Source of the DNA: Tidjanibacter sp.
GTDB lineage: Bacteria; Bacteroidota; Bacteroidia; Bacteroidales; Rikenellaceae
DNA length: 64,000 bases
Direction of reading: 5' to 3'
Assembly: GCA_017466345.1 (NCBI GenBank)
Contig: JAFTUI010000001.1
Location: forward strand, 13,808-77,807
Shown piece by piece: positions 1 through 64,000 of this stretch. Under the pieces are notes generated by a model. The model was given only the letters and a program-made list of their open reading frames with translations. It was not told the DNA's origin and made no database searches. How positions within the stretch are numbered: position 1 is the stretch's first letter; each line of letters starts with the position of its first letter. The position numbers and the translations under genes are program-made.

Positions 1-4
1 TATT

Positions 5-247
5 ATGAGAATGGAGGCAGAGGTATCTGCTATCCACGTAATGCTCCAAGAATTGAAGGAGCAGACAGTAGGAAAGGTGTATAACACACAAGAGTTATGT
101 GAGTATCTTAAAGTCGGTAAAGGAACCATTGACAAGTTGAGACTGGACGGCGAGTTGGAGTTTTCAAAGTTGGGCAGAACGATTGTATATACCCAGCGAG
201 ACATTGAGAAGTTATTGGAGAATAATCATTTTAGTTTTGTGGCGTAG
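5..247 (+). CDS. Excisionase-like helix-turn-helix DNA-binding protein
   Basis: 80 aa with the pattern YNTQELCEYLKVGKGTIDKLRLDG...KLGRTIVY typical of Xis/HTH_17; ends 3 nt before the integrase. Confidence 0.75.
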   Translation: MRMEAEVSAIHVMLQELKEQTVGKVYNTQELCEYLKVGKGTIDKLRLDGELEFSKLGRTIVYTQRDIEKLLENNHFSFVA

Positions 248-250
248 TAT

Positions 251-1582
251 ATGGAGGGAAAGTTGAAATTGAGAACAGACGCTACACCTAATGAGTATGG
301 CGAGTATCCAGTAGTGATTATGTATTGCACTATGGGTAAGGCAGTGAGAAAGACATCGGACATCAAGGTTGCCCCAGAGCACTGGTTAGATGGTAAGGAC
401 AACAAGTATGTTAAGGGCGGAAAGGATGGTCATCCAAAGGCAGCACTGCTTAACAACAAGTTGAGAAACTTCAAGGATACATACGATAAGATGATAAACG
501 AGCATCTCGGTGATGGCAACACAATCATAACAGAAGCGGCGTTGAGAGCAATCCTCAATGGAAGATATCAGCAGCATCTTGACACCCAAGAGGGTAAAGT
601 GCCGTTCATACCGTTTGTATTGGAGCATAACGAGGGACTTTACAAAACAGACAAGATTTCAATATCAGTATGGTCGAATGTGAAATGCTATATGAACAAG
701 TTTGATAAGTTTCTTCGCACCATCAAAAGACGGAACACCAATGATGACAATATCCTTTACTGCCGAGATATAACTGCGGATTTGATAAAGGACTATATCA
801 TTTGGAGAAAAGAGGTGGAGGGAAACAGTAATGGCACCATCAACAAGGCACTCTCACCAATTATCAAGACTGTTAAGGCGTGTTGCAGAAAAGGATGGAT
901 AAGCAGAGTGGAGAGTGAAGAAATCAGCGAGTTGTATCTAAATGATGAGGGAAAGTCATTGGATGACAGTATGGAGAAAGAATTTCTTACCATTGAACAA
1001 TTAAGAAAGTTCAAGGAACTTGCTGGTAAGGCGAAGTATGATAGAACACGAGAATACGCGGATGTATTTCTATTTGCTTGTTTCACAGGTTTGCGTTGGA
1101 GCGATTTGATAAGTTTGAAATGGAGCGAGATTGATATGGACAAGTATATGATTGCTCATATGCAATATAAGGGTCATACTCGTAAAGCAAAAATGCTCTA
1201 CATCCCGCTCAATGACATATCAAGAGAGATTTTGGAGAGATGGAAAGGTAAGCACGAGGAGTTCGTGTTCGGACTATTGCCTTCTGGCTATGATTTGAGC
1301 GATGAGGCAGATTTCTTAAAGGTGAAGAATGCTGCGAACAGAACCATCAACCAGTCGCTTCAAAGTATAGGTAATAAGATGGGACTGCCCTTCAACCTTC
1401 ATATACATCTCGGCAGACATACATATGCGATGATGGCACTCAACGGTGGCGTGGATATTAAGACCACCTCTGCATTACTGGGACACGCTTCTACATTGGT
1501 TACGGAGAAGGTATATGCCACATTGCTGCCTAACACGATTGCAGAAATAGTAGGCGACAAACTCAATGTTAAGTTAGATTAA
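251..1582 (+). CDS. Tyrosine recombinase/integrase, Bacteroidetes type (arm-binding, SAM-like and catalytic domains)
   Basis: Catalytic motifs TGLRWSD (R), HLGRH (HxxR), LGH and C-terminal Tyr (KVYA); 443 aa. Confidence 0.95.
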   Translation: MEGKLKLRTDATPNEYGEYPVVIMYCTMGKAVRKTSDIKVAPEHWLDGKDNKYVKGGKDGHPKAALLNNKLRNFKDTYDKMINEHLGDGNTIITEAALRAILNGRYQQHLDTQEGKVPFIPFVLEHNEGLYKTDKISISVWSNVKCYMNKFDKFLRTIKRRNTNDDNILYCRDITADLIKDYIIWRKEVEGNSNGTINKALSPIIKTVKACCRKGWISRVESEEISELYLNDEGKSLDDSMEKEFLTIEQLRKFKELAGKAKYDRTREYADVFLFACFTGLRWSDLISLKWSEIDMDKYMIAHMQYKGHTRKAKMLYIPLNDISREILERWKGKHEEFVFGLLPSGYDLSDEADFLKVKNAANRTINQSLQSIGNKMGLPFNLHIHLGRHTYAMMALNGGVDIKTTSALLGHASTLVTEKVYATLLPNTIAEIVGDKLNVKLD

Positions 1583-1585
1583 CAC

Positions 1586-1616
1586 AAGGACAGAACTTCG
1601 GTTTTGTCCTTTTTTT
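1586..1616 (+). terminator. Intrinsic terminator after the integrase
   Basis: AAGGACAGAAC-TTCG-GTTTTGTCCTT hairpin (cUUCGg loop) followed by a T-run. Confidence 0.85.
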
Positions 1617-1622
1617 GTCTTT

Positions 1623-1854
1623 GGGCAGTGAAGACGGGTAATTATGGGTAAGTTTTTGACCTCAAAGAGCGGTTTTTTAGAGTTGCTCGCTTTCTTGCAA
1701 AAAGTGCCCCAGACAGCGTCAGGGCAGTGTTTGGGCAGTGTGCCACCCCTCACTTACTACTCTTATTTTCGGGAGGATTTGGTCATATTTTCAGGGCAGT
1801 ATTTGGGCAGTTTTCGCTCAATTTTGGGTAGTTTTTGGGCAGTATTTGGACAAA
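1623..1854 (+). repeat. Phased GGGCAGT direct repeats, putative integrase arm-type sites
   Basis: GGGCAGT at 1623, 1722/1733, 1794/1805 and 1837; GGGTAGT at 1826; degenerate copy at 1848. Period is 11 bp within each cluster. Confidence 0.65.
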
Positions 1855-1883
1855 AAAAGACCGATGGGACTACCCAATCGGTC
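1852..1883 (-). terminator. Intrinsic terminator downstream of the DUF2795 gene
   Basis: On the minus strand, GACCGATTGGG-TAGT-CCCATCGGTC followed by T7. Confidence 0.75.
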
Positions 1884-1887
1884 ATTG

Positions 1888-1900
1888 TAAATTGTTGATA
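1888..1900 (-). promoter_or_regulatory. IHF-type binding site at the putative att junction
   Basis: The minus strand reads TATCAACAATTTA, an exact match to the WATCAANNNNTTR consensus. Confidence 0.55.
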
Positions 1901-1927
1901 TTTAGGTTTTTAACCTTTCTCAACCTC

Positions 1928-2149: not shown

Positions 2150-2240
2150 AAAACTCTCTGAATTTTAGGTTGTTATGTTAATTCTGTGTTTGTTGCGGTC
2201 TGCAAAAGTATAAAAAAAACATAAAACCACAATAGTTTCT

Positions 2241-2792: not shown

Positions 2793-2797
2793 ATTTT

Positions 2798-3262: not shown

Positions 3263-3275
3263 AGTCGGGTGGGGA

Positions 3276-5594: not shown

Positions 5595-6950
5595 ATGGCA
5601 TCTTGGATTATTGTGACGATAGTTATACTCTCTATTGTATTAGGTGTAGTCTTAACACTCTACCTCCATCCCAGCCGCCGCATCCTCCGAGAGAGGGAGG
5701 AGAGTTTGGCATTGGCTAATGAGGAGGTTGCTACACTACGCACCGAGGCTTTGAACCGTAGCGAGCAGAGGGCTCGTTTGCAGGAACGTATAGCCTCGCT
5801 CGAACCACTTGTGGAGCGCACCGAGAAACAACAACGCGAGATAACCGCCCTCTCGACCGAGAATGCAAGACTCCGTGAGCAACTCCGTCAGGAGAGCGAA
5901 CAAAGAGCCAACCTGCGCCGCGAGAGCGAGCAGAACTTCAAGGAACTTGCCACTGCCATACTCGAAGAGAAGTCGCAGACCTTCAAGAAGAACAACGAGG
6001 AGCGACTGACGGAGATATTGGCACCTTTTAAGGAGAATTTGGAGGGACTGAGAAACAAAATCGACAAGTGTTATACGGATGAGGTTAGCGAGGTTAAGTC
6101 GCTGCGCGATAGTCTTAAACAACTCACCGAACTGAATGCTACCATCTCTCGCGAGGCTCGCGAACTTACGGATGCTCTGAGGGGCAATAGTAAGGTGCAG
6201 GGCGATTGGGGCGAGATGATATTGCGCCAGATACTCGAAAAGTCGGGCTTGGAGGAGGGCGTGAACTTCACTATGCAGGCTACACACAACGCCGATGGTA
6301 GCAAAATTGTGGGCGAGGAGAGCAACTTGTTGCGTCCCGATGTCATCTTCCATCTGCCCGAAGGCAAACATATCGTCATAGACTCCAAGGTGTCGCTTAC
6401 GGCATACGTCAACTATGTCAATGCCACAAGCGAGGAGGAGCGCGAGGCTGCACTTGCGGCACACGTTGCATCGGTCACTCAGCACGTCAAGGAACTAACC
6501 GCCAAACAGTATCAACGCTATGTGAAGGACGCCGCCGACTTTGTAATGATGTTTGTGCCCAACGAGGGCGCCTATATGGCGGCAATGAACGCTGATACGG
6601 GGCTGTGGGAGAAGGCTTACCAACAACACGTTGTCATCATCAGCCCCACACACCTCATCTCGGTGCTGAAACTGATGTACCAACTCTGGACACGCGATAA
6701 GCAGACCAAAAATGCGCTCTCGATTGCCGAAGAAACGGGTAAACTCTACGACAAACTCTGTGGCTTTGTGAAGGATTTGCAGGATGTCGGCTCTGCTCTC
6801 TCGAAGGCTCAGGAACGCTACGATGAGGCGTGGGGTAAACTCTCCACAGGCAAGGGCAACCTCCTGAAAAAAGCCGAAGATATTAAGGCACTGGGCATTA
6901 AGACCGCCAAACAACTCCCCGCAGCAGTTACCGAGCAGTTGGAGGAGTAG
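5595..6950 (+). CDS. rmuC: DNA recombination protein RmuC
   Basis: N-terminal TM segment and coiled coil; QGDWGEMIL, RPDVIFHLP, IDSKVSL and MFVPNEG motifs. Confidence 0.93.
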   Translation: MASWIIVTIVILSIVLGVVLTLYLHPSRRILREREESLALANEEVATLRTEALNRSEQRARLQERIASLEPLVERTEKQQREITALSTENARLREQLRQESEQRANLRRESEQNFKELATAILEEKSQTFKKNNEERLTEILAPFKENLEGLRNKIDKCYTDEVSEVKSLRDSLKQLTELNATISREARELTDALRGNSKVQGDWGEMILRQILEKSGLEEGVNFTMQATHNADGSKIVGEESNLLRPDVIFHLPEGKHIVIDSKVSLTAYVNYVNATSEEEREAALAAHVASVTQHVKELTAKQYQRYVKDAADFVMMFVPNEGAYMAAMNADTGLWEKAYQQHVVIISPTHLISVLKLMYQLWTRDKQTKNALSIAEETGKLYDKLCGFVKDLQDVGSALSKAQERYDEAWGKLSTGKGNLLKKAEDIKALGIKTAKQLPAAVTEQLEE

Positions 6951-11381: not shown

Positions 11382-11385
11382 TTAT

Positions 11386-13039: not shown

Positions 13040-13161
13040 AAACGCATATAATCGGCGACTTAGTCGTTGCACTGCGATAAACCACCTCCTCATTTACGCC
13101 TTGTAAACTGCGGAGGTGGTTTTCTTGTGCGCCTATAATTCATCCGATTCTATGCGTTTTT
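13038..13161 (+). repeat. Palindromic element, copy 1
   Basis: Terminal IR AAAAACGCATA/TATGCGTTTTT; core AAACCACCTC-CTCATTTACG-CCTT-GTAAACTGCG-GAGGTGGTTT. Confidence 0.85.
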
Positions 13162-13162
13162 C

Positions 13163-13286
13163 AATAACACATATAACGGGTGCTTTTCGCACCAAACTGC
13201 AATAGGCGAGTTCCTCATTTGCGCAAAGCAAATTGTGGACTCGCCTTTTTGTTTGGCACAAAAATCCCTCCGCTATATGCGTTATT
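13163..13286 (+). repeat. Palindromic element, copy 2 (tandem with copy 1)
   Basis: IR AATAACACATATA/TATATGCGTTATT; core AGGCGAGTTC-CTCATTTGCG-CAAA-GCAAATTGTG-GACTCGCCT. Confidence 0.8.
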
Positions 13287-13288
13287 TT

Positions 13289-13439
13289 GTCTAACGTCTA
13301 ACGTCTAACGTCAATAGTCCTAAGGCTTATAAGGCATATAAGGCATATAGGGCTTATAGGAATTTAAGGAGTTTAAGGGCTTTAATGACCTTAACGACCT
13401 TAATGTCCTTAATGTCCTTAATGTCCTTAATGTCCTTAT
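13289..13439 (+). repeat. (GTCTAAC)3-GTCAATAGTCC followed by a 9-mer TAAGG/CCTTA array
   Basis: About 7 units carrying TAAGG/TAGG, then 6 units carrying CCTTA (TAATGTCCT x4). Confidence 0.85.
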
Positions 13440-20884: not shown

Positions 20885-21001
20885 CAAAATATAGAGCGAC
20901 TGCTGCGTTGCACTGCGATAAACTCCCTCCTCATTTACGTCAAAGTAAACTGCGGAGGGAGTTTTCTTGTGTGCCTTGCATTCATCTCTCTATTTTGTTA
21001 T
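20881..21001 (+). repeat. Palindromic element, copy 3 (right-half fragment follows at about 21002-21060)
   Basis: IR ATAACAAAAT...ATTTTGTTAT; core AAACTCCCTC-CTCATTTACG-TCAAA-GTAAACTGCG-GAGGGAGTTT. Confidence 0.85.
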
Positions 21002-21081
21002 TTCTTGTGCTGCGGAGGTCGCCCTCTTGTTTGGCACAAAAATCCCTCCCTCTATTATTCCACACTCGGTGGTTGCTCTTT

Positions 21082-21197
21082 GTCTAACGTCTAACGTCAA
21101 TAGTCCTAAGGCTTATGAGGCTTATAGGGCTTATAGGGCTTATAGGGCTCATAGGAGTTTAACGACCTTAATGTCCTTAATGTCCTTAATGTCCTTA
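21082..21197 (+). repeat. (GTCTAAC)2-GTCAATAGTCC followed by a 9-mer array
   Basis: Same architecture as 13289-13439. Confidence 0.85.
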
Positions 21198-21280
21198 TTC
21201 TCTCTCAACTATTTATGTGACTTTCAATTCCAAGAGCGGTAGATGCCAACCGCCCACCTCACGGTGGTCGTGGCAAGACG

Positions 21281-21314
21281 CAAAAATCGCAGGTTGAATT
21301 TGCAACCTGCGATT
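21281..21314 (-). terminator. Terminator of the orphan membrane gene
   Basis: AATCGCAGGTTG-AATTTG-CAACCTGCGATT with a T-run on the minus strand. Confidence 0.7.
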
Positions 21315-21339
21315 ATGATTATTGTAAATTCGAATAGAG

Positions 21340-22623
21340 TTAATCATTTGATTTTAAGTCTATTGACAAGAAGTTACAAAATGCTTCTTCTGAGCCAATT
21401 TCACTTGTGGTATAACCATAATCTATTAGCTGCCAATAGAATTCCCTAATCTTTTCTTCATTGCTTAGCGACTTCAAAAAGTTGTTAACTGTTCCTAAGT
21501 CTTTGCTTGATATGTATTTGGAACCTAAAAGACTATAATAGAGCAATCTTCTTTTATGTGGGAACTCAACCTCGTTTAGTTTTTGTGTTATGTGTAGTCT
21601 GGCGGATGGATACTCTTCTAAAAAATGGTCAATATCACAAAGCGCAACTCTATATACTTTCCCATTACATAGATATTTGACATTAAACGATAATTTACTC
21701 TCTTTAAGCGTGTGGAATGCAAAAACGGGACTTGTAAATTCCTCGTTTCCCATATACAGAGTATGATATAAATGGGCCGTACCCAAGTATGTTTCCACCT
21801 CTACTCTGCTCATCAATCCCTCATACTTATCTCTTATAAGTCTGCCCGCAATGCGCTCTACATTGTAGTCGTGAGCCAATGATGATACAAACTCGCTAAA
21901 AGTTCCTAAATTGTTGAAATTATTGTCTTGAAGATATGAGTATACCTCTTCCAATGGATTTGCAACCTCTCTAATTGCATCGTGTTTTAGTTCTATTTGG
22001 TTGGGGTTGCAAGTGGTGGTTAAAAATGCAATAAGCGCAATTAACAATATGCACACACATCCTACAACTACTGAGATGATACTCTTTCTTCCTGTCTTGT
22101 TTGTTGTTTCTGCATCAATAGGGGACGGTTGCTCTTGCTGAGTAGTGGTAACTTCATCCGATTTCTCATTTGAGCCAATATGAGTTTTATGGCTATCCTC
22201 TCTTTGGTGGGTAGACTTTTTGTGGGGAAAAAACACTCGCCACGCAGACCTTCCATTTTTACGCAAGCACAGCAAAAGCGCAAATATAATGCAGACTACC
22301 GAAGAGGTAAAGAGCATTTCCCACAAATCTCTGCCATAATCTACACTTTGAACAACTATGTTGATAACTTGCAGTGCACCAAGTATATACAATCCTATGC
22401 GTTTGATTTTCAGTACCTCAAACATTGCATATATCATTGCCAGGTGCAAAAATGTATTCCACCAAAGATAGGATTCTGGTATATGGTAGTCCGAAACTTG
22501 CGTAAACATAAGGGGCGTAGTTATTACTAAACCCACAATGTGGTTTGCTATAACTAAGTAGATGTATAGTTTAAGAATTATGTTTAGTTCGCCCTTGGCA
22601 CCACTTGTTTTATCCCTATTCAT
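21340..22623 (-). CDS. AT-rich orphan membrane protein
   Basis: 427 aa: 4 N-terminal TM segments, a polar linker, a fifth TM segment and a C-terminal domain; promoter TATCTTTG on the minus strand at 22711-22718. Confidence 0.75.
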   Translation of the reverse strand: MNRDKTSGAKGELNIILKLYIYLVIANHIVGLVITTPLMFTQVSDYHIPESYLWWNTFLHLAMIYAMFEVLKIKRIGLYILGALQVINIVVQSVDYGRDLWEMLFTSSVVCIIFALLLCLRKNGRSAWRVFFPHKKSTHQREDSHKTHIGSNEKSDEVTTTQQEQPSPIDAETTNKTGRKSIISVVVGCVCILLIALIAFLTTTCNPNQIELKHDAIREVANPLEEVYSYLQDNNFNNLGTFSEFVSSLAHDYNVERIAGRLIRDKYEGLMSRVEVETYLGTAHLYHTLYMGNEEFTSPVFAFHTLKESKLSFNVKYLCNGKVYRVALCDIDHFLEEYPSARLHITQKLNEVEFPHKRRLLYYSLLGSKYISSKDLGTVNNFLKSLSNEEKIREFYWQLIDYGYTTSEIGSEEAFCNFLSIDLKSND

Positions 22624-22727
22624 ACTTTGTTGGTTTTATATGAAGACAATTCCCTATGAAGATAATTTGAGATGAAGCCTATGCTTTGTGCGTAAAATCA
22701 AATGTTTCTACAAAGATAATATAATAA

Positions 22728-22762
22728 TTTCCAACTTTCAACTTTCAATTTCCAATTCTCAC
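22728..22762 (-). repeat. (TTGRAAR)5-like heptamer array
   Basis: Plus strand reads TTTCCAA CTTTCAA CTTTCAA TTTCCAA TTCTCAC, directly upstream of the orphan's -7 box. Confidence 0.8.
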
Positions 22763-22775
22763 AAATACGAGAGGG

Positions 22776-22816
22776 GCGAGAGCAAAGAAAACGAGTTTTC
22801 TCTGCCGAGCAGGAGC
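22776..22816 (+). repeat. Second hairpin repeat family, copy A
   Basis: GCGAG-AGCAAAG-N12-CTCTGC-CGAGC-AGGAGC; a matching copy lies at 36436-36476 on the minus strand. Confidence 0.55.
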
Positions 22817-22907: not shown

Positions 22908-24449
22908 ATGACACAGGAAGAACTCTTTAAGAAACTGATTGCACACTGCAAGGAGTATGGTTTTATTTTCCCTTCGAGCGAGATTTACGATGGTCTGAGT
23001 GCCGTTTATGACTACGGTCAGCTCGGCGTGGAGCTCAAAAACAACATCAAGACCTATTGGTGGGACTCGATGACCAAACTTCACGACAATATCGTTGGTA
23101 TTGATGCTGCCATCTTTATGCACCCCAAGGTTTGGGAGGCGAGTGGTCACGTTGGCGCATTCAACGATCCTCTTATCGACAACAAGGACTCCAAGAAACG
23201 CTATCGTGCCGATGTGCTCATTGAGGATTGGATTGCCAAGCAGGACGAGAAAATCGAGAAAGAGTGCGCAAAGGCTGCAAAGCGCTTTGGCGAGAGTTTC
23301 AACAAGGAGATGTTCTTGCAGACCAACGCCCGCGTGTTGGATATTAAGGCTCGCAGGGATGAGGTAAACAAACGTATGGCAGACGCACTGAATGCCAACG
23401 ACCTCGCCGAGGTGCGCCAGATTATCCTCGACTGCGAGATTGTGTGCCCCATTTCGGGCTCGCGCAACTGGACCGATGTGCGCCAGTTCAACCTTATGTT
23501 CTCCACCCAGATGGGTTCGGTGGCAGAGGGTGCCAATACCGTCTATCTCCGTCCCGAGACTGCTCAGGGTATCTTCGTAAACTTCCTGAATGTGCAGAAG
23601 ACCGGCAGGATGAAGATTCCCTTCGGAATTGCACAGATTGGTAAGGCTTTCCGTAACGAGATTGTAGCCCGTCAGTTCATCTTCCGTATGAGGGAGTTTG
23701 AGCAGATGGAGATGCAGTTCTTCGTGCGTCCCGGCGAGGAGATGATGTGGTGGAACAAGTGGAAAGAGACCCGTATGAGCTGGCACCGAGCACTCGGCTT
23801 CGGCGATGACAACTACCGCTTCCACGACCACGAGAAACTTGCCCACTACGCCAATGCTGCAACCGATGTGGAGTTCAACTTCCCCTTCGGCTTCAAGGAG
23901 GTGGAGGGTATCCATAGCCGTACCGACTACGACCTGGGTCGCCACCAGCAGTTCTCTGGCAAGAAGATTCAGTATTTCGATCCCGAAACGGGCGAGAGTT
24001 ATGTTCCCTACGTTGTCGAGACCTCTATCGGTGTAGACCGTATGGTATTGCAGGTTCTCTCGGCAGCCTACAAAGAGGAAGCTCTCGAAAATGGCGAAAC
24101 ACGCACCGTACTCTCCATTCCCGCACCTCTGGCTCCCGTCAAGGTGGCTGTATTGCCTCTCGTGAAGAAAGACGGCTTGCAAGAGATTGCTATGGACCTT
24201 GTGCATAAGCTCAAATTCAGCCACAACGTGCAGTACGATGAGAAAGACTCCATTGGCAAACGCTACCGCCGTCAGGACGCTATCGGTACCCCCTTCTGCG
24301 TGACCGTAGACCACCAGACCAAAGAGGACGGCACCGTAACCATCCGTGAGCGCGACACAATGAAACAGTACCGCGTGAGCATCAGCGAGTTGGAGGCTAT
24401 CGTGGCTGAGAAAGTAGGTATGCGTCAGTTGTTCGAGAAGTTAGTTTAA
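22908..24449 (+). CDS. glyQS: Glycine--tRNA ligase, alpha2 type
   Basis: YDYGQLG, LRPETAQG, FRNEI..RQFIFRMREFEQMEM, EKLAHYA and ETSIG motifs. Confidence 0.97.
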   Translation: MTQEELFKKLIAHCKEYGFIFPSSEIYDGLSAVYDYGQLGVELKNNIKTYWWDSMTKLHDNIVGIDAAIFMHPKVWEASGHVGAFNDPLIDNKDSKKRYRADVLIEDWIAKQDEKIEKECAKAAKRFGESFNKEMFLQTNARVLDIKARRDEVNKRMADALNANDLAEVRQIILDCEIVCPISGSRNWTDVRQFNLMFSTQMGSVAEGANTVYLRPETAQGIFVNFLNVQKTGRMKIPFGIAQIGKAFRNEIVARQFIFRMREFEQMEMQFFVRPGEEMMWWNKWKETRMSWHRALGFGDDNYRFHDHEKLAHYANAATDVEFNFPFGFKEVEGIHSRTDYDLGRHQQFSGKKIQYFDPETGESYVPYVVETSIGVDRMVLQVLSAAYKEEALENGETRTVLSIPAPLAPVKVAVLPLVKKDGLQEIAMDLVHKLKFSHNVQYDEKDSIGKRYRRQDAIGTPFCVTVDHQTKEDGTVTIRERDTMKQYRVSISELEAIVAEKVGMRQLFEKLV

Positions 24450-36380: not shown

Positions 36381-36435
36381 CATTATGGATATATAGGATA
36401 ACCCTCAATTGACCAGCCTTTGGCTGCTCCAAATC

Positions 36436-36476
36436 GCTCTCGCTCTGCAAAGTCTGCAAGCAGCCTCTGCCCTCGC
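36436..36476 (-). repeat. Second hairpin repeat family, copy B
   Basis: Minus strand reads GCGAG-GGCAGAG-N12-CTTTGC-AGAGC-GAGAGC. Confidence 0.55.
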
Positions 36477-36488
36477 TTACTCGCGATT

Positions 36489-36523
36489 TTCTCAATTCTC
36501 AATTCTCAATTCTCAATTCTCAA
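36489..36523 (-). repeat. (TTGAGAA)5 array overlapping the 3' end of a gene
   Basis: Five exact copies; they contain the TGA stop at 36513-36515. Confidence 0.9.
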
Positions 36524-37210: not shown

Positions 37211-38617
37211 TTATCGGCGAGCAAAACGATGCTTTGCCACGTTCTTGTTTTTTGTTACCTTCTTTGTGATGGCGGTTGCCTTTTTGCTGACCTTTGCGGG
37301 TGCGGCAGACACCTCCTCTGTGTAGTCGGTAAATTCAAATGCGCTTGTGAATGTGCCGGTTATTGCATAGCCTGCATCATCGGTGCAGTTGAGTGTTACA
37401 GAGTATACACCCTCCTCGCTTGTGGCAGCGATGGTTATAGAGCCGAGTGTGAGGGGAGCCATAGGACCATCTTTAACAATTACCCCATTATCGAATGTCG
37501 CAATCCACGAGCCTACCAAATAACCTTCCTCATCTACATAGCCTTCATCAAAAGTGTATTCATCGCTATCACTGGAAAGATAGGCGATGTAGGTGCCAAC
37601 AATGTCAGTGGCAGTTGATGGCGTCCAAATGCTAAGATAGAGGTTTAAGCCACTTAGCTCATCATTATTTTCATACAAGTCTAGTATGTAGTTGTGACAG
37701 TTGATACCATACCAATCGCCATAGAAATCTGCATAGCCGTATGCTTCATCACCCGAGATGTTGAAAGAGTAGTCATCTGTAAGGTTGCTGTAATAGTAAT
37801 CGCCCGAGCCACCCGAGCCGCCCTCATCATCCGAATAGAGCTCACATTCGAGCGAGCCTTCGTAGGTAATTGTGATGGTCTCGCCACCGACTATTTTTAT
37901 GGTAGCCTCCAACTTTCCATTCGATACCACCACAGTGGCATCTTCGAGGTTGAAAATATCGCCATTCATATAGAAACTATAACCATCTGCAATGGTGCCG
38001 GCAGCGGTAGTTGCCTCGGGGTCGAAGGTGTATGTTCCATTAGGTACAGCATAACCTGTCTCTTCGCCGGCAGTGTCGGAGTAGATGTCGAAGCAGTAGG
38101 CGATAGCGTCAAGTGGCAACTCACCCTCTGCGTCAAATGGTTTGTCGTGCAGGATTACATAGTAGTTGTAGGTCTCACTGTACAAATTACCGTAGTAGGT
38201 ACCAGAGAAGTAGAGTGTGCCCGATTCGGCACCGCCATTGCCACCACTGCTTGCGCCTGCGCCCTTCTGATTTACGGTTACCTCAAATTTGCAATCGCTG
38301 CCATATGTCACCTCGATTGTCGCAAGGCGCGACTCTTTGGAGGTGTTTTCCTCCACAACAAAGGTTACAGTCTCGCCCGTTGTTAGACCGTCAATCCAAT
38401 CGGCAGTGCACTGAGCCTTTACCTGCACACCATTTACGGGATTTTCGATAGTGTATGTAATTTCGCCATTGCCACCCTCAGCGTTAAACTCCATAATAGC
38501 TGCCGATGTGCGGTTGAGTTTTGATTTTGTTTCGGGGTCGGGGGTGTTGCCCGTCTGCTCGCACGATGCCAACAGCAGGGTGCAAAGCGCCATTGTTAAT
38601 GATAGAATTCTCTTCAT
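37211..38617 (-). CDS. BACON-domain surface lipoprotein
   Basis: Lipobox LASC; FNAEGGNGEITYTI...ADWI...FVVEENTSKESR BACON pattern; acidic Tyr-rich domains; start moved to MKRILS. Confidence 0.85.
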   Translation of the reverse strand: MKRILSLTMALCTLLLASCEQTGNTPDPETKSKLNRTSAAIMEFNAEGGNGEITYTIENPVNGVQVKAQCTADWIDGLTTGETVTFVVEENTSKESRLATIEVTYGSDCKFEVTVNQKGAGASSGGNGGAESGTLYFSGTYYGNLYSETYNYYVILHDKPFDAEGELPLDAIAYCFDIYSDTAGEETGYAVPNGTYTFDPEATTAAGTIADGYSFYMNGDIFNLEDATVVVSNGKLEATIKIVGGETITITYEGSLECELYSDDEGGSGGSGDYYYSNLTDDYSFNISGDEAYGYADFYGDWYGINCHNYILDLYENNDELSGLNLYLSIWTPSTATDIVGTYIAYLSSDSDEYTFDEGYVDEEGYLVGSWIATFDNGVIVKDGPMAPLTLGSITIAATSEEGVYSVTLNCTDDAGYAITGTFTSAFEFTDYTEEVSAAPAKVSKKATAITKKVTKNKNVAKHRFARR

Positions 38618-55929: not shown

Positions 55930-58878
55930 TTAGAAGGTTACATCAAGACCAAAAGTGTATTGGCGTGCCATAGGATATTGAGCCGCATAGATGTTGGTTG
56001 TACCCTCAGGGTCAAGACCAGAGAAGTGTGTAAAGGTCAACAGGTTCTGAGCCTGAACATATAGCCTCACACCACGAATAGCATTCTGCCCTGCAAGCCA
56101 CTCCGAGGGGAGCGAGTAGGAGAGCATTACGTTTTTGAGCCTCAGGAATGATGCATCCTCCAAGAGTCGTGAGTCGAATTCGGTATATTCGCCATAGCGG
56201 GGAATGTCGGTAACATCGCCGGGCTTCTGCCAGCATCCCAAAAGGCGGCGCGATTGGTTGTAGGTTGCAAAGCGACCATTCGACTCATCGAAGTAGCGGT
56301 CGTTATTGAGCATCCACCTATCAGCCACCCAGCTGAACTGTGTGCTGAGTGACAAGCCTTTGTAGGTCAGTGCTGTGCCAAAGCCACCCTGCCAGGGAGC
56401 AATGTAGGTCTTGCCGACCAAGACTTTGTCCTCATCGCGCAACTCGGTCGTGAGGTTGCCCTCCTTGTCGTACCACAGGGCATCGCCATTGGCGGGGTTT
56501 ACGCCCGCATAGCGGTTGATATAGAATTCGCCCAGAGGATGACCAACAACAAGTTTGGTGTTGGTGCCCGAGCGTTCATACTCCGTCACTCCATTGTAGA
56601 GTTCGGTAATCTCGTTGTGGTTGTATGCCACATTGGCATTTACGGTCCACAAGAAGTCATCGGTGGCAACGAGTGTAGCGTTGAGGTTGAGCTCTGCACC
56701 AGCATTTACCATCTCGCCCACGTTGTCCCAATAGTAGCCAAAGCCACTTGTGGAGTAGGGGGTGGGTACTTGCATAAGCATATCGCTCGTGACCTTATAG
56801 TAGAGTTCGAAATCCACATTGAGCCTATTCCAAAAGCCTGCGTGCAGGGCGAAGTTGGTTGTCCAGGGTTTTTCCCATCCAAGATTTTCGTTACCAGGCT
56901 GAGCTAAGCCTACGCCCGCATCGCCCACATAGTCGGCACCACCGCCAACAAGGGCAAGGTGCTCGTAGTTGGGAATAGAGGAGTTACCACTCGTACCCGT
57001 AGAGAGTGATACTTGTGCGGTTGTGAGCCAATCGGTGTAGGGTAGGATGAAGTCCTCCTTCATCATATCCCACATCAGACCCATAGACCAGAAAGCACCC
57101 CAGCGGTTGGACTTACCAAACCTCGAAGAACCGTCTAAACGGAAGGCTGCCTCGGCATAGAGTCGGCGGTCGTAGTTATACTCGCCACGCGAGAAGAACG
57201 AGAGGAAACCGTAATCGGAGTCGGTCGTGTCATCCCACGAAGTAGCCCTTGTACCCGTAGAGATACTTGTCAGGCGGTCGTTGTTCTGACCTTCCACCAG
57301 CACGCTAAACGCCTCGTAGTGGTAGTCTACACCCTCTTGACCAAGCAGGAAAGTGAAATTGTGGTCGCCATCTATGTCGAAAGTGTAGTTTGCAGTGTTG
57401 GTAATCGTAAGGCTGTAACCATCGGTCGAAGAACGCGATGCAGAGCCGTTGTTTTGGTTGGGAGCGTAACTTGGATAGGACTTGCCATAGCCTGTGGTGT
57501 GTGAGTAATCCACGCCAAACTGAGAACGCAACACAAGACCCTCAATGGGTTTAGCCTCTGCAAATATCGTGGAGAGGAGTTTGTACTTTTGATAATGCAC
57601 AGGGTTTGCTTCGAGCCATTCGAGAGGGTTCTGACCATTACCCTTCCACGAACCGTCCTCGATAGAGGCAATAGAACCGTCCTCTCGGCGGGGATTCCAA
57701 TAGGGAAGCATAAAACGTGCTGCCGAGATGGGGGTTACGAGTGTATAAGCACCCTCATCTGCCTGCCGTATCTTCTGATAGTTGAGCATTGTGTTGGTGC
57801 CCAATGTGAGCCACTCTGCCGCCTTGCGCTGCACGTTCGTTCGGAGCGAAAAGCGCTCGAAGTCGCTACCCACTGCCGTACCCTGCTGGTTGTAGTAGCC
57901 ACCCGAAAGGTAGTAGTTGGTCTTGTCATCTGCACCCGACACCGAAACCTCGTAGTTCTGCAATGGAGCCGAAGAGTTGAAGACCTCGTTCATCCAATTC
58001 ACGTTTGTGCGCTCCAAAAGAGCATAGTTTTGCCCCTCTGTCATTCCTGTCTGCTTCTCGTAGGCGATGCGTTCGGGAGTAGTCATCAAATCCCACTTGC
58101 TGTCATCTGCTTGCGAAAAGCCGAGTTGAGTGCGGAACTCAATGCGTGGACGGTCGGCAATTCTACCGCGTTTGGTAGTAATCACGATAACGCCATTTGC
58201 CGCCCTTGCACCGTATATAGAGGTCGAAGAGGCGTCTTTGAGCACCGAGAGTGACTCGATGTCCGCAGGGTTGATTGTATTAAAATCGCTTGCCGAGATG
58301 GGTACTCCATCGAGGATGTAGAGTGGGGCAGTGCCTGAGTTGATAGAGTTGGTACCACGAATAGTCATCGTTGTCGATGCACTTGGCTCGCCAGAGTTGG
58401 AGAGTACCGACAGACCCGCAACTTGTCCTTGCAACGCCTGGTCAAAAGCGGCTGTTGGAGTATTCTCCACCTTCTCTGCCTTGACGGTCGAAACCGAGCC
58501 GGCAACGGTACCTTTCTTACGCACAGCATAGGCAATAACCACGACATCATCGAGCACTTCGCTTTCGCTCTGCATCTTCACATCGTGCGCAACCTCTGCC
58601 GAGCCGGTGGGAATTTTCCACGCAACCTCCTTGTATCCCATATAGGAGTAGGTTAGAGTGGTGCCGGCTGCGGCTTTGATGGTGTAGGTGCCATCTACTG
58701 CTGTTGTTGTACCACTAAATGTTTCGGTCAGGATGGTGACACCAATCAGAGGCTCTCCCCCTGCGGCATCCACCACCTTACCACTAACTGTTACCTGCTG
58801 ACCCTGCGCATAGGAGGGTAAGCCGCACAACACCGCAAGGAGTGTTGTAATTAAAAGTTTGGTCAGATTTGTTTTCAT
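55930..58878 (-). CDS. SusC/RagA TonB-dependent transporter
   Basis: Carboxypeptidase-regulatory-like N-terminus; LKDASSTSIYGARAANGVIVITTKRG signature; C-terminal Phe; start moved to MKTNLT. Confidence 0.97.
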   Translation of the reverse strand: MKTNLTKLLITTLLAVLCGLPSYAQGQQVTVSGKVVDAAGGEPLIGVTILTETFSGTTTAVDGTYTIKAAAGTTLTYSYMGYKEVAWKIPTGSAEVAHDVKMQSESEVLDDVVVIAYAVRKKGTVAGSVSTVKAEKVENTPTAAFDQALQGQVAGLSVLSNSGEPSASTTMTIRGTNSINSGTAPLYILDGVPISASDFNTINPADIESLSVLKDASSTSIYGARAANGVIVITTKRGRIADRPRIEFRTQLGFSQADDSKWDLMTTPERIAYEKQTGMTEGQNYALLERTNVNWMNEVFNSSAPLQNYEVSVSGADDKTNYYLSGGYYNQQGTAVGSDFERFSLRTNVQRKAAEWLTLGTNTMLNYQKIRQADEGAYTLVTPISAARFMLPYWNPRREDGSIASIEDGSWKGNGQNPLEWLEANPVHYQKYKLLSTIFAEAKPIEGLVLRSQFGVDYSHTTGYGKSYPSYAPNQNNGSASRSSTDGYSLTITNTANYTFDIDGDHNFTFLLGQEGVDYHYEAFSVLVEGQNNDRLTSISTGTRATSWDDTTDSDYGFLSFFSRGEYNYDRRLYAEAAFRLDGSSRFGKSNRWGAFWSMGLMWDMMKEDFILPYTDWLTTAQVSLSTGTSGNSSIPNYEHLALVGGGADYVGDAGVGLAQPGNENLGWEKPWTTNFALHAGFWNRLNVDFELYYKVTSDMLMQVPTPYSTSGFGYYWDNVGEMVNAGAELNLNATLVATDDFLWTVNANVAYNHNEITELYNGVTEYERSGTNTKLVVGHPLGEFYINRYAGVNPANGDALWYDKEGNLTTELRDEDKVLVGKTYIAPWQGGFGTALTYKGLSLSTQFSWVADRWMLNNDRYFDESNGRFATYNQSRRLLGCWQKPGDVTDIPRYGEYTEFDSRLLEDASFLRLKNVMLSYSLPSEWLAGQNAIRGVRLYVQAQNLLTFTHFSGLDPEGTTNIYAAQYPMARQYTFGLDVTF

Positions 58879-59023
58879 AACGCGCAAAAATATAATTTTT
58901 ATCTGAACAACATACCCCTTATACCTCTTTTTTATTAACAATTTATTAACAAATTATTGTCGAAGGGTGGTAGCACAGAACTGCTGCGAGAAATAACTTC
59001 CTCTTTCTTAACACTCCTCAATA

Positions 59024-60067: not shown

Positions 60068-60076
60068 GGGGTTGAA

Positions 60077-61045: not shown

Positions 61046-61056
61046 TGGGCAAATAA

Positions 61057-61200: not shown

Positions 61201-61232
61201 ATGCCTCTATCGGGGTACAAAATGGAGAGATA

Positions 61233-62513: not shown

Positions 62514-62517
62514 GAGT

Positions 62518-63261
62518 ATGTACAAACGCAATATATATAAAGTGTTGTCCAGTGAGCCCCTCTCGGCAAAGACTCGGAAGATGGTCTTGGAGGGCGATAC
62601 GCAGTATATCACTGCCGCAGGACAATTTGTAAATGTGGAGGTGGAGGGTAAGTTCCTGCGCCGTCCAATCTCGGTGTGCGACTATGACGACAAGAGCATA
62701 ACGCTACTCTACGACATTGTAGGCGAGGGCACTAAGGCAATGAGTCTTTGGGCAGAGGGCAAACAGGTAGATTTGCTCACAGGCTTGGGCAATGGCTTTT
62801 CGGAGAATAGGGGGTGTCATCACCCCGCACTATTGGGTGGTGGTATAGGCTGTGCACCACTCTATAATTTGGCGAAGAAACTCATTGCAAAGGGCGCACA
62901 ACCCGTTGTTATTTTGGGCTTTAATAGTGCCAAAGATGTGGTTAGTAAGGATATGTTTGAGGCGCTCGGAGTGGAAACATACATCGCCACTGTGGATGGA
63001 TCGGAGGGCACCAAGGGCTTTGTGACCGATGTTATAAGGGAAAAGGGCTTGGAGTGCGACTACTTCTACGCTTGCGGACCAATGCCTATGCTTAGGGCGG
63101 TCTGCAATAGCATAGAGTGGGCAGGCGAAGTGAGCCTCGATGAGCGTATGGCGTGTGGCTTTGGCGTTTGTATGTGTTGCAGCATCGAAACCAAAAGCGG
63201 TGCAAAGAGAATCTGCAAAGAGGGACCCGTATTCAGCAAGGAGGATTTGATATGGAAGTAA
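62518..63261 (+). CDS. pyrK: Dihydroorotate dehydrogenase electron-transfer subunit
   Basis: LRRPISV, GGGIG, ACGP and MACGFGVCMCC motifs; start moved to MYKRN. Confidence 0.95.
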   Translation: MYKRNIYKVLSSEPLSAKTRKMVLEGDTQYITAAGQFVNVEVEGKFLRRPISVCDYDDKSITLLYDIVGEGTKAMSLWAEGKQVDLLTGLGNGFSENRGCHHPALLGGGIGCAPLYNLAKKLIAKGAQPVVILGFNSAKDVVSKDMFEALGVETYIATVDGSEGTKGFVTDVIREKGLECDYFYACGPMPMLRAVCNSIEWAGEVSLDERMACGFGVCMCCSIETKSGAKRICKEGPVFSKEDLIWK

Positions 63262-64000
63262 AACGAGATACGAGTGTGGTATTGAGCGGTGTAAGGCTCG
63301 ATAACCCTGTAATACCTGCCAGCGGTTGCTTTGGCTACGGCTATGGTATGGCGGACTACTACGATATTAACATTCTGGGCTCCATATCCTTCAAGGGTAC
63401 CACCCGCGAGGCTCGCTATGGCAATCCTCTGCCCCGTGTTGCTGAGTGCAGAGAGGGTATGATTAACGCTGTGGGCTTGCAGAATCCAGGCATTGACGCT
63501 GTCATTGCTGAGGAACTTCCCAAGATGCGCGAGAAATTCCACAAACCCATCATCGCCAACATTAGCGGCTTCTCGATTGACGAGTATGTGGAGTGCTGTG
63601 CCAAGATTGACAAAGAGGAGCAGGTGGAGATTATAGAACTCAACGTATCGTGTCCCAATGTGCACGGAGGAGGTATGAGCTTTGGCACCTCGCCCGAGAG
63701 TGTTGCAGAGGTTGTGAAGGCTGTGAAGAAGGTCATCACAAAACCGCTCTATGTGAAACTCACGCCCAACGTGACCGATATTGTGGCTATCGCTAAGGCG
63801 GCAGAGAAGGCGGGTGCAGATGGTATATGCCTTATAAATACTATGCTCGGAATGAGAATAGACACCCGCACCCGCAAACCCGTTATTGCCAATAAAATGG
63901 GTGGCTTTTCGGGCGCAGCGGTTTTTCCCGTGGCGGTGAGGATGGTCTATCAGGTGTCGAAGGCGTGTGGCATTCCCGTCATCGGTTGTGGCGGCGTGGA
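63252..64000 (+). CDS. pyrD: Dihydroorotate dehydrogenase 1B catalytic subunit (truncated by the window end; not in the ORF track)
   Basis: The frame from ATG 63252 reads MEVKRD...NPVIPASGCFGYG, NAVGLQNPG, ELNVSCPNV and YVKLTPNV, with no stop before 64000. Confidence 0.93.
   Translation, partial: MEVKRDTSVVLSGVRLDNPVIPASGCFGYGYGMADYYDINILGSISFKGTTREARYGNPLPRVAECREGMINAVGLQNPGIDAVIAEELPKMREKFHKPIIANISGFSIDEYVECCAKIDKEEQVEIIELNVSCPNVHGGGMSFGTSPESVAEVVKAVKKVITKPLYVKLTPNVTDIVAIAKAAEKAGADGICLINTMLGMRIDTRTRKPVIANKMGGFSGAAVFPVAVRMVYQVSKACGIPVIGCGGV

What the first reader, a model, noticed from the sequence alone, without database searches (positions are those of the whole stretch)
1..64000. Two DNA words, CATG and CTNNAG, appear to be missing from the window, including from the foreign-looking genes
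Seen: I found no CATG in 1 to about 4900, 21340-22623 or 55930-58941, where roughly one per 250 bp is expected. I found no CTNNAG (any of its 16 hexamers) in 1-1582, 5700-6950, 21340-22623 or 22908-24449. CTNAG, CTN3AG, GATC, TCGA and GGCC do occur. The gap shows in codon pairs: Leu-Glu is written CTC GAA or TTG GAG, Leu-Lys CTC AAA or CTG AAA, Leu-Gln CTG CAA, and Met follows T-, A- or G-ending codons, although GAG/AAG/CAG and C-ending codons are otherwise common. Established: palindrome avoidance is the classic footprint of restriction-modification, and CATG is the NlaIII/FatI site. Inference: a long-standing R-M or methylation-linked pressure acts on this lineage. I do not recall a prototype enzyme for fully degenerate CTNNAG (SmlI CTYRAG and SfcI CTRYAG cover only subsets), so this may be an undescribed specificity. 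The integrase module and the AT-rich orphan obey the same rule, which suggests incoming DNA is filtered or drawn from a pool under the same barrier. The scan was by eye and partial.
Basis: partly seen in the sequence, partly recalled or inferred. Interest (0 to 1): 0.72.

Follow-up and report, generated by a model that had tools for sequence, protein, structure and literature searches.

The report
Genome purged of restriction-enzyme target words
This gut bacterium (Rikenellaceae, Tidjanibacter) has almost completely removed several short DNA words that restriction enzymes recognise, above all CATG and CTNNAG, and selection still keeps them out; the phenomenon is known, but this case is extreme and points to an uncharacterised candidate CTNNAG enzyme.

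Summary
The 64-kb window has 0 CATG and 0 CTNNAG, against about 245 and 207-254 expected. Across the 1.82-Mb genome both words stand at O/E about 0.03, and about 0.008 in the 1.6-Mb core. All 16 CTNNAG hexamers are equally depleted. CTAG, GGCC, GATC, CCGG, GGNCC, CCNGG, CGWCG and YACGTR are depleted too.

The cause is selection, not mutation bias. Synonymous codon pairs are rerouted. Dipeptides with no synonymous escape (Gly-Pro, Pro-Gly, Trp-Pro) are themselves depleted. The 1,445 substitutions separating this genome from its nearest relative created about 10-fold fewer CATG, CTNNAG, CTAG, GGCC and GATC sites than matched random substitutions, while control words behaved neutrally.

CTNNAG is not an undescribed specificity. 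It is the published specificity of M.Eco57I and a published 6mA motif of Barnesiella intestinihominis. This genome and B. intestinihominis both carry an Eco57I-type methyltransferase followed by a conserved 240-aa protein with no family assignment, a candidate CTNNAG endonuclease.

No CATG system was found here; two CATG-free relatives carry NlaIII/IceA-type enzymes. The link between erasure and resident genes is partial. Not all incoming DNA is filtered: a prophage and one R-M cassette carry many sites.

The parts
1..64000 (.). Core chromosome stretch with complete absence of CATG and CTNNAG. It has one CTAG (position 37681) and 5-10-fold depletion of GGCC, GATC, CCGG, GGNCC and CCNGG.
   Evidence: counts against Markov expectations; codon-pair rerouting; substitutions against L031 avoid creating the words.
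1..1582 (+). Right end of a low-GC mobile or defence island, C5:1 to about 15,400 in genome coordinates. The island holds Type I hsdR/S/M, two unknown ORFs, a serine resolvase and a tyrosine integrase (window 251-1582). It contains no CATG, CTNNAG, GGCC, GATC or CCGG, and one CTAG (in the hsdRSM genes).
   Evidence: Pfam: Phage_integrase, HsdR/S/M; Resolvase; word counts: 0 of those five words across L087:1859-13900 and the integrase.
21076..22811 (-). Strain-specific insertion holding the AT-rich orphan ORF 21340-22623 (427 aa, no Pfam family). It is absent from the closest relative L031. GC is 0.38. It has zero CATG, CTNNAG, CTAG, GATC and CCGG.
   Evidence: L031 alignment jumps from window 21075 to 22812; no family; counts.
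22908..24449 (+). Prolyl-tRNA synthetase gene, used as the marker to fetch and place 80 relatives.
   Evidence: Pfam; loci; tree.
37681..37684 (.). The only CTAG in the window.

Best explanation
The window is ordinary core chromosome of a Tidjanibacter-like Rikenellaceae gut bacterium. Its whole genome has been purged by purifying selection of the recognition words of Type II restriction-modification systems that circulate in this lineage.

Shown:
- The words are almost absent genome-wide.
- The absence is achieved through synonymous codon choice and, where no synonym exists, through loss of dipeptides.
- New substitutions still avoid creating CATG, CTNNAG, CTAG, GGCC and GATC.
- CCGG depletion is a fading relic: CCGG sites are now gained at the neutral rate.
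- Sets of erased words switch on and off between related species.

Inferred: each unmethylated site carries a small fitness cost. The cost could come from self-cleavage when methylation lags, when a system arrives or is lost, or when DNA moves between strains with different systems. With large populations the words are then driven close to zero.

For CTNNAG the likely agent in this genome is a two-gene operon between leuS and mntP (C25:124295-126476). It encodes an Eco57I-type gamma N6-adenine methyltransferase (P0002, 488 aa) and an overlapping 240-aa protein of an unannotated family (P0001). I propose that P0001 is the cognate endonuclease and that it cuts every CTNNAG. For CATG no cognate gene was found in this assembly. 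NlaIII/IceA-type systems in two CATG-free relatives show that such enzymes circulate in the family.
For: Depletion and its uniformity:
- Searches give the counts and expectations.

Selection rather than mutation:
- All 12 one-step neighbours of CATG, and the CC/CG/TT variants of CTNNAG, are modestly raised. No single direction dominates.
- The genome has no PF00145 C5-methyltransferase.
- Codon-pair rerouting is seen.
- Gly-Pro (always GGNCC), Pro-Gly (always CCNGG), Trp-Pro (always GGCC) and His-Val are depleted about 2-fold relative to relatives.

Ongoing constraint:
- The window and L031 differ by 1,445 substitutions in 15.6 kb.
- Observed gains relative to simulated gains are CATG 0.11, CTNNAG 0.04, CTAG 0.00, GGCC 0.08 and GATC 0.11.
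- Eight control words give 0.78-1.31, and CCGG gives 0.86.

Lineage specificity:
- O/E is bimodal among 68 relatives. CATG is below 0.1 in 10 and at least 0.6 in 47. CTNNAG is below 0.1 in 9 and at least 0.6 in 50.
- The CATG-free state needs at least 7 changes on the ProRS tree, and the Tidjanibacter clade is uniformly CATG-free.

Link to CTNNAG:
- M.Eco57I has CTNNAG specificity (PMC3874165).
- B. intestinihominis methylates CTNN6mAG and encodes exactly this operon (exact protein matches EJZ65391.1 and WP_410264589.1). The 20 kb around the operon there have CTNNAG O/E 0.02-0.09.
- P0001 follows a P0002-like methyltransferase in 49 of 49 metagenome loci.
- Close P0002 homologues occur in 3 of 14 CTNNAG-free relatives and 0 of 36 others.
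- In unlinked 20-kb samples, 9 of 13 operon-positive Rikenellaceae species have O/E at most 0.06, and none reaches 0.7.
- The P0001 model is confident (pLDDT 92). Its best fold matches, all weak, are Type II endonucleases: BsmI, BstEII, BsaWI and BspD6I.
- The operon itself has 0 CTNNAG, 0 GGCC, 0 GATC and 1 CATG, so it looks long-resident.

Link to CATG:
- PF05315 (IceA/NlaIII) was found only in G015 and G021, both CATG-free.
Against: - The gene-to-erasure link is partial in both directions. Eight of 18 operon-negative congeners are equally CTNNAG-free. The nearest relative L031 shares every erasure but lacks P0001, P0002 and NlaIII-type genes. Rumen loci carrying the operon show CTNNAG O/E of only 0.4-1.1.
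- In B. intestinihominis the operon is less depleted (0.48) than its flanks (0.03), so the present copy may post-date the erasure.
- No CATG methyltransferase or endonuclease was identified in this genome. The assembly nevertheless holds 234 CATG sites. These need either protection or the absence of an active CATG enzyme.
- P0001's nuclease nature rests on gene context and weak fold hits only (no Foldseek hit at E <= 0.001; no PDB profile hit).
- These are MAGs (this one 95.6% complete). Binning by composition can lose atypical R-M islands, so gene absences are weak evidence.
Confidence: 0.72

Rival explanations
1. Transfer-level selection rather than self-restriction. The words are kept out because DNA of this highly recombining gut lineage is repeatedly exchanged between strains and species that carry different, rapidly changing R-M systems. 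Alleles without target words cross those barriers more easily. The core genome would then behave like a mobile element, and a given cell need not encode the cognate enzyme.
For: - Erasure is actively maintained in lineages whose MAGs lack any detectable cognate system (L031).
- Eight of 18 operon-negative congeners are CTNNAG-free.
- Identity between the window and L031 is mosaic, 87.6-98.4% in adjacent blocks, which suggests recombination.
- The integrase/Type I island is even more thoroughly purged than the core.
Against: - There is no direct measure of recombination or of the R-M repertoires of partner strains.
- MAG incompleteness, or non-homologous enzymes with the same specificity, could explain the missing genes.
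- Self-restriction costs are the established explanation and are sufficient in principle.
Confidence: 0.15
2. Relic of past R-M systems. The words were removed long ago and are simply slow to return, with no present selection.
For: - Most erased genomes lack a cognate gene.
- CCGG behaves this way: O/E is 0.18, but new sites are gained at the neutral rate (0.86).
Against: - For CATG, CTNNAG, CTAG, GGCC and GATC, recent substitutions create 9- to 25-fold fewer sites than matched random ones (for CTAG, none), while control words are neutral.
- Five Tidjanibacter species share only 73-88% DNA identity in alignable stretches, yet four keep CATG at O/E 0.07 or below and the fifth, L031, at 0.09.
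Confidence: 0.06
3. Mutational bias, such as deamination of methylated cytosines or a very-short-patch-type repair system that converts the words to specific neighbours.
For: C-to-T was the commonest change at orthologous CATG positions in relatives, but counts were small. CTAG depletion in enterobacteria has been ascribed to Vsr repair (my own knowledge).
Against: - No C5-methyltransferase gene is present.
- The known CATG and CTNNAG modifications are N6-adenine, which is not mutagenic.
- Neighbour words are raised evenly: GATG 1.7, TATG 1.25, and CC/CG/TT-NNAG about 1.2.
- Amino-acid dipeptides are also affected.
- CCAG/CTGG is itself depleted (0.57), the opposite of the Vsr prediction.
Confidence: 0.04
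4. Artefact of assembly or of binning by tetranucleotide composition.
For: Composition-based binning would favour collecting contigs with the same 4-mer gaps, and could exaggerate genome-wide uniformity.
Against: - The absence holds inside single long contigs: 0 sites in the 110-kb contig C5.
- The same pattern recurs in independent MAGs from goat, deer, buffalo and human samples, and in the isolate-derived B. intestinihominis sequences.
- Islands with normal word density sit inside otherwise purged contigs.
Confidence: 0.01

Closest known systems
Restriction-site (palindrome) avoidance in prokaryotic genomes and their mobile elements. Sources: Gelfand & Koonin 1997 and Rocha et al. 2001 from my own knowledge; Rusinov et al. 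2018, PMC6286503; Shaw et al. 2023, PMC10359461, seen by title and abstract only.
   Same: Short palindromic words recognised by Type II R-M systems are under-represented. The set of words is lineage-specific. Mobile DNA shows the same effect.
   Different: - The degree: O/E about 0.008 in the core for two words with four specified bases each, and at least ten words affected at once.
- The constraint reaches amino-acid dipeptides.
- It is demonstrably active in a close relative in which no cognate gene was found.
Eco57I R-M system: the Type IIG enzyme Eco57I (CTGAAG) with its companion methyltransferase M.Eco57I of specificity CTNNAG (PMC3874165).
   Same: P0002 is a stand-alone gamma-class N6-adenine methyltransferase. 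It carries the Eco57I Pfam domain and an NPPY motif, and its size is similar. CTNNAG is the word erased from the genome.
   Different: There is no large fused restriction-methylase gene beside it. The partner is a 240-aa protein of an unannotated family. All 16 hexamers are avoided, not only CTGAAG/CTTCAG. This implies restriction with the full degenerate specificity.
CTNN6mAG methylation in Barnesiella intestinihominis (mEnrich-seq preprint, bioRxiv 10.1101/2022.11.07.515285).
   Same: It has the same two-gene operon (49% and 53% identity), belongs to the same bacterial order, and shows the same near-absence of CTNNAG around the operon.
   Different: Methylation was measured there and not here. 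The preprint passages I read name no gene for the motif and do not mention that CTNNAG is nearly absent from the genome. There the operon sits next to a phage-terminase-like gene and is less purged than its surroundings.
NlaIII / IceA (CATG) restriction systems, Pfam PF05315.
   Same: CATG is the erased word. Full-length NlaIII-type genes flanked by methyltransferase genes occur in two CATG-free relatives.
   Different: No member was found in this genome.

Membership tests
Restriction-site avoidance | The word is far below expectation under a maximal-order Markov model, genome-wide. | tested here: met
   CATG O/E 0.034 (Markov). All CTNNAG hexamers without CTAG are at 0.02-0.07 (Markov-4)..
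Restriction-site avoidance | The word equals a known R-M recognition sequence. | tested here: met
   CTNNAG is the specificity of M.Eco57I and the B. intestinihominis 6mA motif. CATG as the NlaIII/FatI site is from my own knowledge; PF05315 homologues are present in CATG-free relatives.
Restriction-site avoidance | A cognate R-M system is encoded in the same genome. | tested here: inconclusive
   CTNNAG: a candidate operon, P0002 plus P0001, is present, but its specificity is inferred and not measured. CATG: none found. The assembly is 95.6% complete.
Restriction-site avoidance | The depletion is caused by selection, not by mutation bias or chance. | tested here: met
   Neighbour words, codon pairs, dipeptides, and the substitution simulation with control words.
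Type II R-M operon (P0002 + P0001) | An N6-adenine methyltransferase with an AdoMet-binding motif and an NPPY catalytic motif. | tested here: met
   P0002 contains 'DNSCGDGAFL' and 'VGNPPYV'. Pfam Eco57I 1.9e-23. PADLOC MTase_II PDLC03315 4.9e-133. Its nearest solved structures are adenine-specific DNA methyltransferases and M.BseCI.
Type II R-M operon (P0002 + P0001) | A conserved adjacent gene for the endonuclease. | tested here: met
   P0001 homologues lie directly downstream of a P0002-like gene in 49 of 49 loci of at least 6 kb. In one relative the downstream gene is broken while a fragment of the methyltransferase gene, cut by the contig end, is still present.
Type II R-M operon (P0002 + P0001) | A nuclease fold and catalytic residues in the partner protein. 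| tested here: inconclusive
   The model has pLDDT 92. The best Foldseek hits are Type II endonucleases, but at E 0.013-0.08 and TM about 0.3. E59, D72, K92, E107 and E112 are invariant. There is no Pfam or PADLOC family.
Type II R-M operon (P0002 + P0001) | Methylation and cleavage at CTNNAG. | not testable with these tools
   This needs a methylome or an enzyme assay.
Eco57I-type Type IIG system | A large fused endonuclease-methyltransferase (about 1,000 aa) next to the companion methyltransferase. | tested here: not met
   The operon lies between leuS and mntP and has only the 488-aa and 240-aa genes.
NlaIII / IceA family | A PF05315 match in the genome. | tested here: not met
   0 matches in G000. 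Matches occur only in G015 and G021. tblastn with their three genes finds nothing in this genome.

The most novel reading that the evidence does not exclude
The erasure is maintained without resident cognate enzymes. In this recombining gut lineage the whole core genome is selected, like a plasmid or phage, to pass the changing restriction barriers of neighbouring strains. The list of erased words would then be a readable record of the community's restriction repertoire. It would include a CTNNAG-cutting enzyme family (P0001) that has never been characterised.
Probability: 0.15. Interest if true: 0.8.

Novelty: new member of a known kind. Interest (0 to 1): 0.55.

Why it matters
Word avoidance caused by restriction enzymes is textbook biology. 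This genome shows how far it can go.
- Two words that should each occur about 7,000 times are reduced to about a hundred in the core.
- The constraint bends codon choice and even protein dipeptide content.
- It is still acting in a close relative in which no matching enzyme gene was found. That sharpens an open question: is the cost self-cutting, or failure to exchange DNA?

There are also practical uses.
- The pattern of erased words marks recently acquired DNA at single-gene resolution in metagenome-assembled genomes.
- The pattern nominates a widespread unannotated protein family (more than 1,100 homologues) as a candidate new Type II endonuclease that cuts CTNNAG. I found no such enzyme described.
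- It suggests that the reported enrichment of B. intestinihominis using CTNNAG-cutting enzymes may owe something to the scarcity of sites as well as to their methylation.

Tried and rejected
- Orthologous-site substitution spectra against more distant relatives (L002, L005, L009 and others). Only 1.5-5 kb aligned, at 72-79% identity, so counts were too small to use.
- Self-avoidance of CTNNAG inside the operon as a clue to its specificity. This was uninformative. Operon O/E was 0.48-0.67, no lower than the flanks.
- Pfam-level presence of Eco57I-domain proteins as a predictor of CTNNAG erasure. It did not discriminate: 16 of 23 erased against 16 of 25 non-erased genomes.
- NlaIII-type endonuclease and its two neighbouring methyltransferases sought in this genome: none found.
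- The C8 fused beta+alpha methyltransferase with a TdeIII-like endonuclease as the cause of the erasure. Rejected, because the cassette is a recent arrival (GC 0.35; 12 CATG and 4 CTNNAG in 2.8 kb).
- The weak Eco57I hit at C14:55139. It is a small MTS-type methyltransferase, not a DNA methyltransferase.
- Contig C20 as an rRNA operon that might explain its residual sites: no Rfam match.
- P0001 sought in phage and plasmid collections: no match.
- P0001 family profile against PDB sequences: nothing meaningful.
- Literature search for restriction site avoidance in Bacteroidales: no paper held.
Full report
**What the sequence is.** The window is C5:13808-77807 of a 1.82-Mb, 30-contig metagenome-assembled genome (95.6% complete, 4.1% contamination). 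Its genes are ordinary Bacteroidales chromosome: RecQ, RmuC, an AcrB-type pump, ProRS, Rho and SusC-like receptors. ProRS is 100% identical to an 'uncultured Alistipes sp.' MAG (L031) and 95-97% identical to several Tidjanibacter MAGs from ruminant and other animal guts. The organism is therefore a Tidjanibacter-like member of the Rikenellaceae.

**The observation.** The window contains no CATG and no CTNNAG. Expectations are 245 for CATG and 207-254 for CTNNAG. The gap is genome-wide:
- CATG 234 sites, O/E 0.033.
- CTNNAG 219 sites, O/E 0.03.
- CTAG O/E 0.02.
- GGCC 0.09, GATC 0.17, CCGG 0.18, GGNCC 0.22, CCNGG 0.24.

Hexamers and pentamers matching YACGTR, CGWCG, ACGCGT, TTTAAA and GCGCGC are also very rare. 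Among all two-plus-two words with 0-8 spacer bases, CTN2AG is third lowest. CT-AG at other spacings is 0.69-1.29. All CTNNAG hexamers not confounded by CTAG have Markov-4 O/E 0.02-0.07, so the avoided word really is the fully degenerate CTNNAG. Eighty percent of the residual sites lie in 12% of the genome. The other 1.60 Mb holds 92 sites against about 11,900 expected.

**How the absence is implemented.** It is done mainly through synonymous codon choice:
- Leu(CTN)-Lys/Gln/Glu(NAG) pairs: 66 observed, 2,730 expected.
- NNC-ATG: 61 observed, 3,304 expected.
- CAT-GNN: 57 observed, 529 expected.
- NCA-TGN: 23 observed, 459 expected.

Where no synonym exists, the protein itself gives way. Gly-Pro always spells GGNCC, Pro-Gly always spells CCNGG, and Trp-Pro always spells GGCC. 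His-Val is squeezed between CATG and YACGTR. These are among the dipeptides most depleted relative to non-erased relatives: GP 0.35 against 0.60, PG 0.48 against 0.84, WP 0.29 against 0.55, HV 0.41 against 0.91. Among relatives, loci with low GGNCC or CCNGG likewise have fewer GP or PG dipeptides. That comparison is partly circular, because the dipeptides contribute to the word counts.

**Selection, and still acting.**
- The one-step neighbours of both words are raised modestly and evenly.
- The genome has no C5-cytosine methyltransferase. A deamination route is therefore unlikely.

The strongest test uses the nearest relative, L031. It differs from the window by 1,445 substitutions over 15.6 kb. 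I placed the same substitutions at random positions, matched for base, target base and codon position. That would create 27 ± 4 CATG and 23 ± 4 CTNNAG sites. Observed gains were 3 CATG and 0 CTNNAG by a direct count, which ignores indels, scores 1 CTNNAG. The ratios of observed to simulated gains were:
- CATG 0.11, CTNNAG 0.04, CTAG 0.00, GGCC 0.08, GATC 0.11.
- Eight control words: 0.78-1.31.
- CCGG: 0.86.

So five words are under active constraint, while the CCGG depletion looks like a fading relic.

**Distribution among relatives.** In 68 loci of 9-21 kb around ProRS, O/E values are bimodal and lineage-specific:
- CATG is below 0.1 in 10 loci and at least 0.6 in 47.
- CTNNAG is below 0.1 in 9 loci and at least 0.6 in 50.
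- GATC is below 0.1 in 8 loci, GGCC in 3, CCGG in 4 and CGCG in 3.
- CTAG is low almost everywhere (58 of 68), so that depletion is an order-wide trait.

On the ProRS tree the CATG-free state needs at least 7 changes. The Tidjanibacter clade is uniformly CATG-free, although its members share only 73-88% DNA identity in alignable stretches. L031 shares this genome's entire set of erased words. GGCC erasure is confined to these two.

**What CTNNAG corresponds to.** It is not an unknown specificity. The Type I/IIG review states that M.Eco57I, the companion gamma-methyltransferase of Eco57I, has the degenerate specificity CTNNAG (PMC3874165). A preprint reports CTNN6mAG as a methylation motif of Barnesiella intestinihominis. 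A giant-virus methylome also lists the motif (PMC12700378).

**Methyltransferase inventory.** The DNA methyltransferases found in this genome are few:
- Two Type I HsdM genes.
- A prophage D12-class enzyme.
- A fused N6_N4+D12 enzyme beside a TdeIII-like endonuclease.
- One Eco57I-type gamma enzyme, P0002 (488 aa; NPPY motif; PADLOC MTase_II 4.9e-133).

**The candidate CTNNAG operon.**
- P0002 lies between leuS and mntP (C25:124295-125761). It overlaps by 8 bases a 240-aa ORF, P0001, which has no Pfam or PADLOC family.
- P0001 has more than 1,100 homologues, mostly unnamed and otherwise labelled 'hypothetical protein', apart from one evident mislabel.
- In 49 of 49 metagenome loci of at least 6 kb it directly follows a P0002-like gene.
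- Thirteen of those loci are B. intestinihominis. The proteins match EJZ65391.1 and WP_410264589.1 exactly. Their 20-kb surroundings have CTNNAG O/E 0.02-0.09.
- The AlphaFold model of P0001 is confident (pLDDT 92).
- Its best PDB fold matches are weak (E 0.013-0.08). Six of the top nine are Type II endonucleases (BsmI four times, BstEII, BsaWI, BspD6I small subunit), with other PD-(D/E)XK nucleases lower in the list.
- E59, D72, K92, E107 and E112 are invariant.

I therefore read the pair as a Type II R-M system with a new endonuclease family, probably cutting CTNNAG. This reading is inferred, not shown.

**How well the operon explains the erasure: only partly.**
- Close P0002 homologues occur in 3 of 14 CTNNAG-free relatives and 0 of 36 others. 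With this genome included, that is 4 of 15 against 0 of 36 (Fisher p about 0.006, my arithmetic).
- Across 401 Rikenellaceae species, 17 carry P0001.
- In 20-kb samples unlinked to the operon, 9 of 13 carriers have O/E at most 0.06 and none reaches 0.7.
- But 8 of 18 non-carriers in the same genus are equally erased.
- L031 lacks the operon yet is under active constraint.
- Rumen loci carrying the operon show O/E of only 0.4-1.1.
- In B. intestinihominis the operon is less purged than its flanks (0.48 against 0.03).
- Other erased genomes carry different Eco57I-domain systems. One example is a 505-aa methyltransferase next to a T5orf172-helicase protein (L219).
- Pfam-level presence of the Eco57I domain does not discriminate erased from non-erased genomes.

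Several readings remain open. Systems may turn over quickly while the erasure persists. Non-homologous enzymes with the same specificity may exist. Binning may have lost some R-M genes. Selection may act through DNA exchange rather than self-cutting. Causality could also run partly in reverse, since a site-free genome can take in such a system safely.

**CATG.** No NlaIII/IceA-type gene (PF05315) is present in this genome. The only two hits among 50 genomes are in CATG-free relatives, G015 (L002) and G021 (L014). In L002's genome (L178) the gene sits between two methyltransferase-like ORFs; in L014's genome (L179) only one of these is present. Homologues of those genes are absent from this genome. 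The agent acting on CATG here is unidentified.

Site-free elements:
- The 15-kb low-GC island ending in the window's integrase. It carries Type I R-M, two unknown ORFs, a resolvase and the integrase. It has zero CATG, CTNNAG, GGCC, GATC and CCGG and a single CTAG.
- The orphan at 21340-22623, which is an insertion relative to L031.
- The P0002/P0001 operon.

Site-bearing elements:
- A prophage at the end of C14: 39 CATG, 21 CTNNAG, 27 CTAG and 45 GATC in 20 kb, its own D12 methyltransferase, and strikingly no CCGG.
- The 2.8-kb TdeIII-like R-M cassette: GC 0.35 and 12 CATG, with flanks at zero.
- The 40-kb island upstream of the prophage.
- Parts of C7 and C18, and all of C20.

Word content thus separates long-adapted from recently arrived DNA at gene resolution.

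**Verdict.** The general R-M interpretation is the best explanation, and it is a known kind of phenomenon. The claim of an undescribed specificity is wrong for methylation and open for cleavage. New here are:
- the candidate endonuclease family;
- the demonstration of ongoing constraint in a close relative where no cognate gene was found;
- the effect on protein dipeptides.

Caveats:
- All genomes are MAGs.
- Specificities are inferred.
- The association statistics are not phylogenetically corrected.

Noticed in passing
Genome C8:39286-42101 (L081:9286-12101): A 2.8-kb R-M cassette: a TdeIII-like endonuclease (272 aa) and a fused N6_N4+D12 methyltransferase (666 aa). GC is 0.35. It has normal densities of every word the host avoids (12 CATG, 5 CTAG, 6 GATC), while both flanks have none. 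It looks like a very recent insertion between a MatE transporter gene and glycosyltransferase/LicD genes. Its specificity is unknown.
   Followed up: partly
Genome C14:147800-158989 (L082:8849-19988): A prophage with integrase, replication genes, terminase, portal, protease, major head protein and a D12 methyltransferase. The 20-kb stretch that contains it has normal CATG, CTNNAG, CTAG and GATC but no CCGG at all (CCNGG 34). The host meanwhile gains CCGG at the neutral rate. The phage seems adapted to a CCGG barrier that the host genome no longer records as active.
   Followed up: partly
Genome C5:1-15400 (L087 plus window 1-1582); L218 and L219 in relatives: The resolvase of the island next to the window is 65% identical to a resolvase in two relatives (G192, G186). 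There it neighbours a different cargo: an Eco57I-domain methyltransferase plus a T5orf172-helicase protein, instead of a Type I system. This suggests a defence island with exchangeable R-M cargo.
   Followed up: partly
Whole genome (proteome): Dipeptides whose codons must spell an avoided word (Gly-Pro, Pro-Gly, Trp-Pro), or nearly must (His-Val, His-Gly, Glu-Thr), are about 2-fold rarer than in relatives. GAGAC/GTCTC, a Type IIS-like word, is at O/E about 0.29, which may explain the Glu-Thr depletion.
   Followed up: partly
Relatives L017, L180 (G208), L208 (G192): Some Rikenellaceae erase CTNAG together with CTNNAG and CTAG (O/E 0.00-0.02 for all three). This genome keeps CTNAG at about 0.7. 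The three related words are therefore lost independently.
   Followed up: no
L151-L170 (Barnesiella intestinihominis loci): CTNNAG is nearly absent (O/E 0.02-0.09) from the 20 kb around the operon in B. intestinihominis. Published enrichment of this species with CTNNAG-cutting enzymes was ascribed to methylation, but may owe something to the scarcity of sites. The operon lies beside a phage-terminase-like gene.
   Followed up: no
Window about 13140-13420, 20900-21190, 36400-36515: Short intergenic stretches match one another and several places in L031 at 75-90% identity. This looks like a dispersed repeat family, probably the palindromic elements noted by another reader of this genome.
   Followed up: no
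Genus-level sample L196-L204: Higher-GC members of the same GTDB genus (GC 0.52-0.61) have CATG over-represented (O/E 1.4-1.7) and normal CTNNAG. Erasure is thus confined to a lower-GC subclade.
   Followed up: no
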